Positions 2,365 to 47,833 of a stretch of DNA of 62,416 nucleotides are shown one piece after another. The translations under genes and the position numbers were made by a program. A model generated the notes under the pieces. It saw only the letters and a program-made list of their open reading frames with translations. It was not told where the DNA came from and searched no databases. The stretch spans positions 1-62,416 of the forward strand of contig NW_021832006.1 of NCBI RefSeq assembly GCF_006345805.1. Reading direction: 5' to 3'. Each line of letters begins with the position of its first letter. Position 1 is the first letter of the stretch. The stretch comes from Octopus sinensis (lineage: Eukaryota).

Positions 2365-2620
2365 AATTGCAGCGTGGAAGGTGTTTGTAAGCCATTTAAG
2401 AAACACACAAAAGCCGTTCGATTTACTTCAACATTTAAGTTTAATTTGTCAAAATATTTTTGTCGCTGAAATCTGCAACCTGTTCACTGACAAAAATCTG
2501 TACTGCATCCGGCTTTTGTGTGTTTCTTAAATGGCTTACAAACACCTTCCACGCTGCAATTGTTTGCATTCCAGCACACGATCTCAGATCAAATCACTTG
2601 CTATGCAAGTACATATCCGT
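2365..2620. mobile_element. Fold-back HHR element (Penelope pLTR/retrozyme-like)
   Basis: Perfect 52-bp inverted repeat 2365-2416/2510-2561 enclosing an HHR motif. Related copy at 38970-39188. Confidence 0.6.
2445..2494 (-). ncRNA. Type I hammerhead motif, G3-C8 core variant, G12A in this copy
   Basis: Minus strand: TTTGTCA GTGAACA G GTTGC agatttca GCGAC AAAA ATAT TT TGACAAA. 7-bp stem I, 5-bp stem II, palindromic stem III. Confidence 0.55.
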
Positions 2621-3504
2621 AATAATAATAATAATAGTAATAAATTCTGGTTTTATTGGCTACAAGGGACAATAAAAGGGCTAACATAAATCAAAAAACA
2701 TGTAAGGATAAACACAGGACGAAAAGTACAAAGGGTTTTGTGAAAAAGAAAGGTCCATGTGAACATTAAAATAACAACGAAAAATATAACAAATAAAACT
2801 CCCAATAGGGGGAGGCGTTACTTATGGAAAAACCCATAAAAGCCATGGGAGCCTGGTCAGAAAAACATAGAGAGCCCCTTCTCCTTTTATATTACCCTTA
2901 TAATAGTAATTTCAAATAGCAATAACCAATCTTGGATAACCCTTCTTGGCTATATAAATAAAAAATGGGCAAAAAGTTGGTACAAAAGAAAAAAATATAT
3001 ATTTGATAAAAACTTTAGACAAGGTTTGTTTTTTATAATGTTGATATTTTAATTAATGTAAAATATAAATAAAATAATTAAGAATCCACGAAATACCACG
3101 TGTTACAGAATCTGAAACACGTGTGCATGCACACACACACAACATACACACACATTTATCTTATTGTCTGTTACTTGTTTTAGTCATAGGACTGTGGCCA
3201 TACTGGGGCACCACCTTGAAGGGGTTTTGCTGAACAAATCAACACCACGATTCTTTTTTTTTTCCTCAGCCTGCTACTTTTATCAGTCTCGTTTGCCCGA
3301 ATCCAGTTAATTACAAGGATGTAAACAACACACATATATGCACACACACATATGCACACACACATATGCACACACACATATGCACACACACATATGCACA
3401 TATATATACATACATGTTCCCAAGTAAGGTAATATTTTCCCATGGTTGGACAAGTTTTCACAGAATACAGAAGCCAGAAGATACTTCTTGTATGACAGGG
3501 ATAT

Positions 3505-4180
3505 GATCATCACCACCATCATGACTACCATCACCACTATCACCACCATCACCACCACTACCACCTTACCACTACCACTACTGCTACCACTATCTCTACC
3601 ACCATCACTATAACTACTACTACTACTACCACCTTCACCACCTCAATCACCATGACCACCACCACTGCCGCCACCACCACCATCACCACCACCACCACCA
3701 TCACCACCACCACCACCACCACTACCTCCTTACCATCACCACTACTGCTACCACTATCTCTACCACCATCACTATAACTACTACTACCACAACCTTCACA
3801 ACCACTACCACCATGACCACCACCACTGCCGCCACCACCACTATCACCAATATTGCTACCAGTATCTCTACCACCATCACCATAACTACTACTACTACCA
3901 GCTTCACCACCACAACCACCATGACCACCACCACTGCCGCCACCACCACCGTCACCATTACCACCACCACCACCATCATCACCACCACCACCACCACCAC
4001 CACTACCACCTTACCATCACCACTACTGCTACCACTATCTCTACCACCATCACTATAACTACTACTACTACAACCTTCACCACCACAACCACCATGACCA
4101 ACACCACTGCCACCACCACCACCACCATCATCACCACCACCACCGTCATCATCATCATCACCACCAACGCCGCCACCATA
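3505..4180. repeat. (ACC/ACT)n compound repeat with higher-order units
   Basis: Recurring accttaccatcaccactactgctaccactatctctacc unit. Confidence 0.9.
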
Positions 4181-4504
4181 CTGTAATATCCCAGTTGGCT
4201 GCTATTGGTCAAAGAGGAATGTTGAAATCAAACATTTTCAAGGCTTCAACAATTATCAAGGTTACTATGGCAACAGGAGTGATGAAGGGAGTGGAGGGGT
4301 GGAGAGGGCGAGTGGATCTTGTTGAAAAAAAGGAGAAAGAGGGGGAGGAAGTAGAGAGAGAGAGAGAGAGAGAGAAAGGGGGAGGGAGATGAGATTTGTT
4401 ATAAGAGGAAGATGAGCTAAATGGTGTGAAGGGGGAGTAGGAAGAGAAGATGAAGAAGAGTAGGAGAGGAGGTGGAGAAGGAAGAGAGAGAAGAGAAAGA
4501 GGCA

Positions 4505-4970
4505 ACTTGTGTGTGTGTGTATGTGTGTGTGTGTGTGTGTATGTGTGTGTGTGTGTGTGTATGTGTGTGTGTGTGTGTGTATGTGTGTGTGTGTGTGAGG
4601 GAGAGAGAGATAACTTGTGTGTGTGTTTGTCTATGTGTGTGTGTGTATGTGCATGCATGTGTATGTGTGTGCATGTGTGTGCATGTGTGTGAGTGTGTGT
4701 GAGAGTTTGTGTGTGTGTATGTGTGTGCATGTGTGTGAGTGTGTGTGAGTGTGTGTGTGAGAGTTTGTGCGTGTGTATGTGTGTGCATGTGTGTGCATGT
4801 GTGTGAGTGTGTGTGTGAGTTTGTGCGTGTGTATGTGTGTGCATGTGTGTGCATGTGTGTGAGTGTGTGTGAGAGTTTGTGCGTGTGTATGTGTGCATGT
4901 GTGTGTATGTGTGTGAGAGTTTGTGAGAGTTTGTGCGTGTATGTGTGTGCATGTGTGTGTATGTGTGAGA
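4505..4970. repeat. (TG)n-derived minisatellite
   Basis: Direct reading. Confidence 0.9.
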
Positions 4971-5647
4971 GAGAGAAAGAGAGAGTGTATACTGAATGTT
5001 GGAGGGGAGAGATCAGAGAAAGTGGTTAGAAATGAGTGAGGTAGGGAGGGACGTAGGGGGGAGGGAGGAAAATGAGAAGTAAAGGAGGGGGATGTTGAGT
5101 GGGCGTGATGTGAAGATGGGAGTGTGAGTGAGAGAGAGAGGGAGAGAGAGAAAAAGAGAGAAAGGGAGGGTGAGAGAGAAAAAGAGAGAAAGGGAGAGAG
5201 AAAAAAAGAGCGAAAGGGAGAGAGAGAAAAAGAGAGAAAGGGAGAGACTATGATGATCACAAGTGTTTCATTGCAATTCTCCTGTTGATGTGATAGGTGG
5301 AGAGGAAAAGAATAACACCTGAGATAGACGAATTTATTGTTCAAACTGCATGCTTGTTCTATGCACATGCACACACACTTATGTATACGCACATGCACGC
5401 ACATGCATGTCCAGGCGTGGCTGTGTGGTAAGAAGCTTGCTTCCCAACCACATGGTTCCAGGTTCAGTCTCATTACATGGCACCTTTGGCAAGTGACTTC
5501 TACCATAGCCGCGGGCCAACTAAAGTCTTGCGAATGGATTTGGTAGACAGAACCTAAAAGAAGCCCATCATATATATTCATATATGTATGTGTGTGTTGT
5601 GTGTGTGTGTGTGTGTGCGTGTGTGTGCGTGTGTGTGTGTGTGTGTG

Positions 5648-5680
<33 letters not shown>

Positions 5681-6603
5681 CTTACCTGTAAATGAATGTG
5701 TGATGTTCGTCAAATATTAATATAAATAATATATATATATATATATATAATAATAATATTAGGGAGTAAATCCAAACTTACAGGGAAAAATTAGATTTAG
5801 GATTAAATATAATTTTATAGTATAATATATATTATATTTAAATTAGAGATAAAACCACTATTAGGCAATCAAACAGTGAAAATCATAACCCAATACATAG
5901 AAATAAATTAATTAATAAAATATATAAAAAATATAAAATATAAAATTCCAAATTAAATATTTAAATTAAAGTTAAGATTTAAAAAATTACTTAAATTAAT
6001 AATTTAAACTTATAAATTTTAATATATATATATATATATTATTATTATTTTATTTATTTATTTATTTATTTAACTATCGATATTTAATATAACTATCAAA
6101 AAGTATTAAAAGTTTAATATAAGATAAAGGAGCAAACAGCCAACAACTGATGGAGGGTCACTCCTCATGTTACTTGTCCTGTTTTCCATTTGTTTCTCTT
6201 GTTTGTGTATTGAACTTATTTGTTTACATATTTCATGTTGTTTACTGTTGGTGACATCCTGTACTCATATATGCATATATATATATGTATATGTATGTAT
6301 GTATGCATATATATAAATATTATTTATTATAAATATAAATTTTATTTTATTTTAAATAAAACCTCTGATTCAATAACACTGAGTATAAACTCTATACTTG
6401 GAATGACCAATTTTAAATACTATTGGATTTTACTCATAAGGTATTGGAATATTATATGTATACCATTCTACCTAAATAAATAAATGGATCTACAAATACA
6501 ATATCCCTGCATATCTCACATCTATTTTCTTTTATTTCCTCCACATCACTCTCTATTTTATATCTTATCTAAATTAGCTATTACTTAACCATCCTCTCAC
6601 ACC

Positions 6604-6651
6604 GTCTCCAATGATGGGATATAATAAATATCCTGGAAACAGCTGTAAGAC
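6604..6651 (+). ncRNA. Degenerate type I hammerhead
   Basis: GTCT ccaatga tg GGATAT aataa ATATCC tg GAAA CAGCTG TA AGAC. Stems intact, core CCAATGA mutated. Confidence 0.5.
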
Positions 6652-6729
6652 CTTCTATCTATAAATGTTCTAAAATCTACACAGCCTTGGTTTTTTATCC
6701 CATTATGAAAAAAGATTTTTAAATATTTT

Positions 6730-46531: not shown

Positions 46532-46579
<48 letters not shown>

Positions 46580-46681
46580 CCTATCTATCTATCTATCTAT
46601 CTATCTAAGCTCTACCTTGTAATTTGTTCTATCTGTGTGCAGCCCTGTGTGGCTAATAAAGAAACATATCTATCTATCTAC

Positions 46682-46736
<55 letters not shown>

Positions 46737-46761
46737 CCTATCTATCTATCTATCTATCTAC

Positions 46762-46808
<47 letters not shown>

Positions 46809-46848
<40 letters not shown>

Positions 46849-47345
46849 TGTAGTTGTGTGAGTGTCTGTCCCCTTCGATTTAGATTCCTAACTACTCCCA
46901 CATTTTGCGGTGCAGTTTAACCAAATTCGGGTATCTTATAGTCGTGATTCATATCGAGCCCGTCTGAGTATTAGCACGCATCTACGATGAGTCTACGATT
47001 TTAAAAATAATTTAACATCATTTTTTATTCCATTTTAATGCATAATTTTTCGTGTGTCGATGGCAGCGGAGTTGGCGTCCATGGTCACACCTGCACCTGT
47101 TTGCTTCTCCCTCTTCTTCCCTCCCTCGTGAAGCTGTGGGGAAGGGAGTGTAAGGAAATCAACGTTGTAAAGCGTTGTCAAGGGGACCAGCATTCTTTTA
47201 GAACAATGACTTCATGGCTTGAAAACACCAAAACAGAAATGGCTAAGAAAACCCGAATTGGCATCTATAAGGGAAGTAACTCTCTAAAGATGCTTATATA
47301 GTTATTTCCCTTACAAACCCGAGCAACGCCAGGCGATACTGCTAG
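46809..47345 (+). mobile_element. Non-autonomous Helitron
   Basis: TC(TA)nAAA start, cccgagcaacgccagg hairpin, CTAG|T end. Relative at 57369-57956. Confidence 0.8.
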
Positions 47346-47357
47346 TATATATATATT

Positions 47358-47833
47358 AATAGTTATCGCCATATTAATATGGCAGTCTTATAAATATAAG
47401 ACTAAAGCTGTCGCTGATTAGCTCCAAGAGGCCACTGCCTCTAGCTAGCTATATGACACACAACCTGCGTCCATTATAACCTTCGAACAAGGGAGGTCAG
47501 CCACTTCATCCTGCCAGTCAGACAGCTACAGACGACGTTTCAGGGTTGTTGCCCCTTATCAATGCAGCGTAGTCAGACTTGCAGGTGTCGCTACTGATCG
47601 TCTCAGTTCGAAGGCTTTATTTACCTAGTTTCGGTGGAATACATCCACTTGTTTTCAATAATAGAAATATTAAAATTACTAAGTCTCTCTAAAAGAGATT
47701 ACGGCAGCATTACTGGAAATGAATAGTTATCGCCATACTAATATGGCAGTCTTATAAATATAAGACTAAAGCTGTCGCTGATTAGCTCCATGAGGCCATT
47801 GCCTTAAGCTAGCTATTTGACACAAACTGCGTC
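47358..47833 (-). mobile_element. Retrozyme-like element, 364-bp monomer present as about 1.3 copies
   Basis: Direct repeats 47358-47471/47722-47833, internal HHR, no ORF. Confidence 0.65.
47525..47568 (-). ncRNA. Type I hammerhead, U3-A8 variant
   Basis: GCTGCA TTGATAA GGGG caacaa CCCT GAAA C gtc G TC TGTAGC. Confidence 0.7.

What the first reader, a model, noticed from the sequence alone, without database searches (positions are those of the whole stretch)
2445..47568. Three different 3-8 catalytic-core base pairs in one window (C-G, U-A, G-C)
Seen: besides canonical CUGANGA, two unrelated motifs read UUGAUAA (47525-47568 minus, 32718-32759 plus) and one reads GUGAACA (2445-2494 minus), each within stems I-III. 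Known: positions 3 and 8 form a Watson-Crick pair in the active hammerhead, and compensatory pairs retain some activity. Inference: the double substitutions are selected covariants, not decay, and standard pattern searches would miss these families. The G3-C8 type needs two transversions and is the most unusual.
Basis: partly seen in the sequence, partly recalled or inferred. Interest (0 to 1): 0.8.

Follow-up and report, generated by a model that had tools for sequence, protein, structure and literature searches.

The report
Swapped-core hammerhead in a Penelope retrotransposon
Three unrelated jumping-gene families in this animal genome carry hammerhead-shaped RNA motifs with an altered core pair: two have the known U-A version, while a family of thousands of copies has a G-C swap so far reported only as a laboratory mutant in the papers searched, and it likely still cuts itself, although cutting is untested.

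Summary
The three motifs are real. Their cores are family-wide, not copy decay. Family A (2445-2494) has 4,447 genomic matches; 96 of the first 100 carry G3-C8 and none carries C3-G8. It lies in the terminal repeat of an autonomous Penelope-like retroelement (RT plus GIY-YIG), 55 nt before the start codon. Sister families carry C3-G8 or U3-A8 at the homologous site. Between them the neighbouring spacer is nearly randomised, while eight core letters and stem II are kept. The window's own copy is damaged (G12 to A). Family B (47525-47568) is a ~362-nt tandem non-LTR retrozyme, U3-A8 in 99 of 100. Family C (32718-32759) is a second Penelope family, U3-A8 in 98 of 100, with a weak stem I. Natural U3-A8 was published in 2011 and 2014. 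My searches found no natural G3-C8, but a key paper (Lunse 2017) was not held. Engineered G3-C8 is known to rescue activity. This scan noted G3-C8 before on other DNA (protist elements, phages), unverified. Cleavage is not shown, and the three motifs show no link to one another. Verdict: new variant of a known kind.

The parts
2445..2494 (-). Family A minimal type I hammerhead motif with G3-C8 core (G3 2487, C8 2482), extra G at 2480, stem II 2479-2475/2466-2462, palindromic stem III 2458-2453, predicted cut between 2452 and 2451. This copy has G12 changed to A (2461).
2362..2509 (-). Short copy of the family A Penelope pseudo-LTR, from the inferred transcription start through the hammerhead into the first codons of the ORF; ends at an (ATT)n run
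   Evidence: (94% to the L121 reference)
2510..2624 (+). Inverted partner piece of the same insertion (3' tail of the pseudo-LTR), the inverted arrangement described for Penelope-like insertions
   Evidence: PMC8557442 passages
47525..47568 (-). Family B canonical-size type I hammerhead motif (6-bp stem I, 4-bp stem II) with U3-A8 (U3 47562, A8 47557), C17 at 47531
47347..47833 (-). Family B element: about 1.3 units of a ~362-366 nt tandem repeat without an ORF (non-LTR retrozyme type)
   Evidence: two motifs 366 nt apart in L040; ten motifs 363 nt apart on C1
32718..32759 (+). Family C minimal hammerhead-like motif with U3-A8 (U3 32722, A8 32727), palindrome ACAUGU, weak stem I
32407..32830 (+). 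[quoted passage not shown]
43716..43750 (+). Canonical C3-G8 minimal hammerhead motif of a fourth repeat family (also in L090, L095)
38967..39191 (.). Second, older family A remnant: inverted pair of tail pieces lacking the CUGANGA-type strand

Best explanation
The G3-C8 motif is the family-wide minimal hammerhead in the terminal repeat of a Penelope-like retrotransposon, and it likely still cuts the element's RNA because the swapped letters would keep the 3-8 base pair of the active site. Shown: the motif sits in both pseudo-LTRs of a complete pLTR-ORF-pLTR copy, 55 nt upstream of the ATG, and its 3-8 pair differs between homologous sister families (G-C, C-G, U-A). Inferred: RNA starts about 16 nt before stem I. 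A read-through RNA with two motifs (4.4 kb apart in L339) pairs them through the AAUAUU palindrome, probably helped by the element's protein, and cuts after U17 to release a unit-length RNA. Single-motif RNAs stay uncut and are reverse-transcribed into the thousands of short copies. G3-C8 arose once from C3-G8 in this lineage and has been kept since the A/A2 split. B and C are independent elements with the known U3-A8 variant; B likely cuts to make ~362-nt monomers and circles, and C is the least certain.
For: Fixation: G3 98, C8 98, both 96 and C3-G8 0 of the first 100 of 4,447 matches. No other letter reaches 2% at the seven core positions in four public runs of four organism labels, while loop II varies. 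Host element: 1,042-codon open frame with YVDD and GIY-YIG; complete tandem L339. Homology: the tails of A, A2, D, D2 and E translate to related ORF N-termini, and D and E are the closest G000 families by protein. Covariation: across 13 rows the 3-8 pair is GC 8, CG 3, UA 2 with none unpaired, and stem II is 98.5% paired with two compensated pairs. The 55-nt spacer is at or near shuffled identity between A and D, D2 or E (0.47-0.56 vs 0.45-0.48), while U4 G5 A6 A13 A14 A15.1 are invariant and G12 nearly so. In metagenome relatives 18 of 21 automatic hits had a Watson-Crick 3-8 pair against 1 of 11 in the reversed control. Chemistry: in an anole Penelope hammerhead, C3G or G8C abolish cleavage and the double mutant partly restores it, with protein needed; the swap was the only rescue in that region in a pairwise scan. 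Stems I and II form in the minimum-energy fold, and the double-hammerhead costs nothing against two monomers (-28.8 vs -28.2 kcal/mol).
Against: No cleavage data. Only 2 of 193 family A pieces begin at the predicted cut site (the sample is biased to core-bearing copies), and 5 of 7 pieces in loci not fetched with family A baits hold the core. The anole study found cleavage unnecessary for insertion in vitro and no reads ending at the cut site. Sister family D and metagenome locus L193 have A9 changed to C, so constraint on these cores may be loose. The old subfamily A2 has U at position 8 in 8 of 26 copies. An alternative dimer is lower in energy (-32.7). G3-C8 is one evolutionary event in my tree (1 of 21 families), and some states there were read by eye. 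The window copy lacks G12.
Confidence: 0.74

Rival explanations
1. The fold is kept for a non-cutting job, such as a binding site for the element's protein or a dimerisation signal, so the 3-8 pair is selected but the RNA is not cleaved in vivo.
For: Cervera and de la Pena report low in vitro activity and do not rule out other functions. Insertion used uncleaved RNA in the anole element. Short copies keep an intact motif. A9C is tolerated in family D.
Against: The letters kept across saturated divergence are the catalytic ones (G5, A6, G12, A13, A14, A15.1-U16.1, non-G at 17), and the 3-8 pair belongs to the active conformation.
Confidence: 0.13
2. G3 was fixed first because it overlaps the element's internal promoter (it falls at +24 from the inferred start; a preference for G at +24 in downstream core promoters is recalled, not from a call), and C8 followed to restore the pair.
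For: Short copies start in a cluster 52-62 nt before the cut site, at an initiator-like TCAGAT/TTAGAT, which puts the motif inside the downstream promoter region.
Against: Sister families have C or U at this site. A DPE-like pentamer lies at +31, not the recalled +28. No promoter test was done. This rival explains the route and is compatible with a working ribozyme.
Confidence: 0.07
3. The motif is a dead hammerhead: two chance transversions in a master copy were amplified by hitch-hiking, and the pairing is coincidence.
For: Identical letters in thousands of copies show only descent from few masters. G3-C8 arose once. A control shows that a repeat family can match a core by chance: about 690 AUGAAUA...GAAA matches belonged mostly to one repeat with no stems I or III.
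Against: G3-C8, GAAA and all stems persist between A and the old subfamily A2, whose spacers are only 47-71% alike. Stem III stays palindromic at two lengths (AAUAUU in A, AAUU in A2), and stem I changes are compensated or give G.U.
Confidence: 0.06

Closest known systems
Minimal type I hammerheads of metazoan Penelope-like elements (Cervera and de la Pena 2014, PMC4209133)
   Same: Position in the pseudo-LTR, extra nucleotide between 9 and 10.1, G10.1-C11.1 (family A), palindromic or absent stem III, inverted pairs of short copies, and U3-A8 families (about 1,300 in Schistosoma).
   Different: Family A has G3-C8, which neither the text read (parts 1-2 of 4) nor the supplement passages seen mention; their descriptor requires CUGANGA.
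Poseidon element of Anolis carolinensis, PAc hammerhead (PMC11167929)
   Same: Hammerhead beside the start codon, copies ending at two tail positions, and the C3G/G8C double mutant partly active.
   Different: There G3-C8 is an engineered rescue; here it is the natural state. The ATG here is 55 nt downstream of the cut site rather than inside stem II.
Natural core variants of Perreault et al. 2011 (PMC3088659)
   Same: U3-A8 covariation in nature (families B, C, E).
   Different: The core-variation section lists U3-A8, A6C, insertions and U15.1-A16.1, not G3-C8 or A3-U8.
Non-LTR retrozymes (PMC7229834; bioRxiv 10.64898/2026.07.22.740005)
   Same: Family B: ORF-less ~362-nt tandem repeats with a 6/4-bp type I hammerhead, within the 350-390 bp reported for mussel.
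   Different: Family B has U3-A8 throughout; the passages seen do not mention this variant or cephalopods.

Membership tests
Hammerhead ribozyme (family A) | Three-way junction with stems I-III around the core | tested here: met
   Stem I 7 bp and stem II 5 bp in the minimum-energy fold; stem III is a 6-nt palindrome
Hammerhead ribozyme (family A) | Invariant U4 G5 A6 A9, G12 A13 A14, A15.1-U16.1, H17 | tested here: met
   GUGAACA in 85 and GAAA in 90 of the first 100 copies; the window copy fails at G12
Hammerhead ribozyme (family A) | Consensus C3 and G8 | tested here: not met
   G3 and C8; the Watson-Crick pair is kept. No Rfam hammerhead match
Hammerhead ribozyme (family A) | Watson-Crick pair between 3 and 8 that covaries between relatives | tested here: met
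   GC 8, CG 3, UA 2 of 13 rows; 21 families on a protein tree all paired (some states read by eye)
Hammerhead ribozyme (families A, B, C) | Self-cleavage 3' of position 17 | not testable with these tools
   Only assembled contigs of runs guessed to be RNA were available
Hammerhead ribozyme (family C) | Stable stem I adjoining the core | tested here: inconclusive
   One pair then a U.U mismatch; a competing pairing covers the cut site; a long distal helix forms
EN+ Penelope-like element (family A) | Single ORF with RT and C-terminal GIY-YIG | tested here: met
   Pfam finds GIY-YIG on the 218-aa piece but nothing on the 998-aa protein
EN+ Penelope-like element (family A) | Pseudo-LTR tandem, inverted 5'-truncated partners, optional tail, (TA)n targets | tested here: met
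   L339 tandem; two clusters of 3' ends; inverted pairs
EN+ Penelope-like element (family A) | Placement in a named clade (Nematis, Neptune, Penelope/Poseidon) | not tested
   No named references were in my tree; a cysteine motif before GIY-YIG fits Neptune or Nematis by PMC8557442
Non-LTR retrozyme (family B) | ORF-less tandem units of about 170-400 nt, each with a type I hammerhead | tested here: met
   Periods of 359-366 nt, up to ten units in a row
Non-LTR retrozyme (family B) | Accumulation as circular RNA | not tested

The most novel reading that the evidence does not exclude
This is a natural, high-copy, working G3-C8 hammerhead, and one clade of Penelope-like elements uses all four Watson-Crick pairs at the 3-8 catalytic site (C-G, U-A, G-C here; A-U in metagenome loci L219 and L239). 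It crosses the inactive single-mutant states because uncut RNA can still be inserted, so the clade is a natural experiment in how a ribozyme active site crosses a fitness valley.
Probability: 0.45. Interest if true: 0.65.

Novelty: new variant of a known kind. Interest (0 to 1): 0.5.

Why it matters
The 3-8 pair was deduced from a crystal structure and confirmed by engineered swaps; nature was known to use C-G and U-A. A G3-C8 family of thousands of copies, with C-G and U-A sister families at the homologous site, would complete the phylogenetic proof of that pair. It would show that searches fixed on CUGANGA undercount genomic hammerheads. It also gives a matched natural series (A, D2, E) for asking whether Penelope hammerheads are selected for cutting at all, which is still open. 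It is a variant of a well-known ribozyme in a well-known setting, not a new mechanism.

Tried and rejected
Whole-window Rfam scan: the 150 best of 325 matches shown were microsatellite look-alikes with no hammerhead among them. A loose G3-C8 pattern was swamped by noise (122,886 matches vs 86,409 control). An A3-U8 pattern in this genome gave 690 matches, mostly one repeat without stems I or III; rejected as chance. Viral contigs held no relative of the protein, and 10 pattern hits lacked GAAA and stems. Sequencing runs: no RNA holder listed, and only contigs were available, so nothing can be said on expression or cut ends. The first tree was distorted by three long branches; I rebuilt it without L067, L254, L265 and four near-duplicates (L157, L159, L169, L174). 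I first read CTAAC...CAG upstream of stem I as a splice acceptor; the junction data fit a transcription start better, and no shared upstream exon appeared. The per-column count caught only 28 copies of one loop class and was not used. Lunse et al. 2017, Przybilski and Hammann 2007 and Hammann et al. 2012 were not held.
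Full report
Setting. The window is a whole 62-kb contig (G000:C8477) of a 2.72-Gb genome, dominated by microsatellites. The best named homologue of the element protein found here is an Octopus vulgaris protein at 58% identity, so the host is probably a cephalopod.

Observation. The strict structural scan found only B, because A lacks G12 and C has a weak stem I. Fold z-scores were -1.96 (A), -3.76 (B) and -1.31 (C). Each motif belongs to a different repeat family.

Are the cores family-wide? 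I searched the genome with flank patterns that left the seven core letters open and counted the first 100 listed matches by hand. Family A: 4,447 matches, control 0; GUGAACA 85, G3 98, C8 98, both 96, C3-G8 0; GAAA 90, AAAA 6. The window's AAAA is therefore a common transition at a CpG, and this copy is predicted dead, G12 being the general base. Family B: 1,571 matches; U3 99, A8 100; only N7 differs between subfamilies (A 71, C 19, G 6, U 4). Family C: 558 matches; UUGAUAA 95, U3 and A8 together 98. Tandem duplicates are included in these counts. In four public runs with four organism labels, no other letter reached 2% at the seven family A core positions, while loop II varied and two stem I changes gave G.U pairs.

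What carries them. Family A lies 3' of a GIY-YIG frame. L156 holds a 1,042-codon open frame with RT and endonuclease, with the motif about 920 nt after the stop. L339 is a complete pLTR-ORF-pLTR with both motifs on one strand 4,361 nt apart; the ATG is 55 nt after the predicted cut, and the ORF is split once, near 3483-3642. Copies end at two positions, about +90 and +148 from the cut site, like the tail described for the anole element. Their 5' ends cluster 52-62 nt before the cut site. In one search, 12 of the 15 junction rows that begin exactly at the A of AGATG have a G in front, where the element has C or T. Several of these Gs also belong to the target duplication or the inverted piece. 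I infer a capped RNA starting there, copied with the hammerhead uncut. Family B is an ORF-less unit of about 362-366 nt in tandem arrays of up to ten, the layout of non-LTR retrozymes. Family C is the 3' repeat of a young Penelope-like family with GIY-YIG.

Selection or hitch-hiking. Sameness among copies shows only descent, so I compared families. A protein search gave two sister families at about 51% identity: D with C3-G8 (and A9 changed to C; 4 of 4 loci) and E with U3-A8 (3 of 3 loci). Pattern searches gave an old G3-C8 subfamily A2 and a C3-G8 subfamily D2 in nearly the same context. Of 29 matches, 3 were C3-G8; of the other 26, 25 had G3, and position 8 was C in 16, U in 8, G in 1 and A in 1. 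The tails of A, A2, D, D2 and E translate to related N-termini, so the motifs are homologous. Across 13 rows the 3-8 pair was never broken (GC 8, CG 3, UA 2) and stem II was 98.5% paired. No shuffle of 500 reached the covariation score, a control that ignores kinship. The spacer between cut site and ATG is at or near shuffled identity between L339 and D, D2 or E (0.47-0.56 vs 0.45-0.48); between A and A2 it is 0.47-0.71.

Relatives elsewhere. In 80 metagenome loci of related elements, a scan free at positions 3 and 8 gave 21 hits, 18 Watson-Crick (C-G 12, U-A 4, A-U 2, G-C 0), against 1 of 11 in the reversed control. I read 32 of the 80 3' flanks by eye; several showed no motif or an unclear one. 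The two A-U hits score near the noise level but sit where the motif belongs; L219 is a tandem with the motif between two ORFs. On a tree of 21 families the pair state changes 9 times, positions 3 and 8 changing 9 times each, and 0 of 200,000 label shuffles were all paired. States for L192, L196, L197, L206 and L226 were assigned by eye, which favours paired cores, and several nodes are weak. G-C appears once, among C-G and U-A neighbours.

Mechanism. Shown: anatomy, position, fixation and covariation. From papers: minimal Penelope hammerheads cleave weakly and only as dimers; in the anole element C3G or G8C abolish cleavage, the double partly restores it, protein is required, and insertion does not need cleavage; G8C costs about 10^5-fold; the C-G to G-C swap was the only rescue in that region of a full double-mutant scan. 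Computed: stems I and II form in the monomer, and the double hammerhead is level with two monomers but 4 kcal/mol above the best dimer. Inferred: cutting of read-through RNA as a protein-assisted dimer, and passage through inactive single mutants thanks to cleavage-independent insertion. Against: only 2 of 193 pieces start at the cut site (biased sample), and no raw RNA reads were available.

Co-location. At the counts above a 62-kb window would hold about 0.10, 0.04 and 0.01 copies of A, B and C (my arithmetic), so all three together is uncommon. They differ in strand, lie 15-30 kb apart and share no sequence. I read this as accumulation in microsatellite-rich DNA, which I did not test.

Literature. 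Natural U3-A8: Perreault 2011 (PMC3088659; passages and section 8) and Cervera 2014 (PMC4209133; parts 1-2 of 4 and passages of one supplement file, the other not searched). Passages only: PMC3884650, PMC6765202, PMC7229834, PMC11167929, PMC8495972, PMC8557442, PMC11014351, PMC6155905, PMC9901934. Part 1 of 5: bioRxiv 10.64898/2026.07.22.740005. Searches for a natural G3-C8 or an octopus hammerhead returned only engineered G3-C8. Lunse 2017, Przybilski 2007 and Hammann 2012 were not held, and the Perreault supplement was not opened; any could hold a natural G3-C8. Earlier notes of this scan report G3-C8 candidates in protist Penelope elements (with an added letter) and in phages, and none for this genome; I did not check them.

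Verdict. Observation confirmed. B and C are new members of known kinds. A is a well-supported natural G3-C8 variant of the Penelope minimal hammerhead whose activity is untested. Interest 0.5.

Noticed in passing
L158:3059, L161, L174, L175 (family D); L193:2497: A9 is replaced by C in an otherwise intact hammerhead in a young G000 family and, separately, in a metagenome element with U3-A8.
   Followed up: partly
L219:1512, L239:1710: A3-U8 hammerhead-like motifs in the 3' UTR of related Penelope elements; this would be the fourth Watson-Crick state.
   Followed up: partly
family A junctions, e.g. L023, L295, L022, L106: Short copies start at one position, usually with a G in front, suggesting reverse transcription of a capped RNA through an uncut hammerhead.
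   Followed up: partly
L306, L310, L320-L324, L330, L315: Old subfamily A2 has G3.U8 in several copies and G3-G8 in one: either decay or intermediate states.
   Followed up: no
L066:2222 and 2467; L012, L020, L166: Further U3-A8 hammerhead families in this genome; U3-A8 is common here.
   Followed up: no
window 43716-43750 (+): Canonical minimal hammerhead of a fourth repeat family; its host element was not traced.
   Followed up: partly
window 38967-39191: Family A remnant whose inversion centre falls at the stem III palindrome, just before the predicted cut site.
   Followed up: partly
L176-L191: A repeat of several hundred copies matches AUGAAUA...GAAA without hammerhead stems: a warning for core-only searches.
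   Followed up: yes
window 23373-24014 (+), 61855-62406 (+): Open frames ending in stretches that look like non-LTR retrotransposon endonuclease fragments (resemblance recalled, not tested).
   Followed up: no
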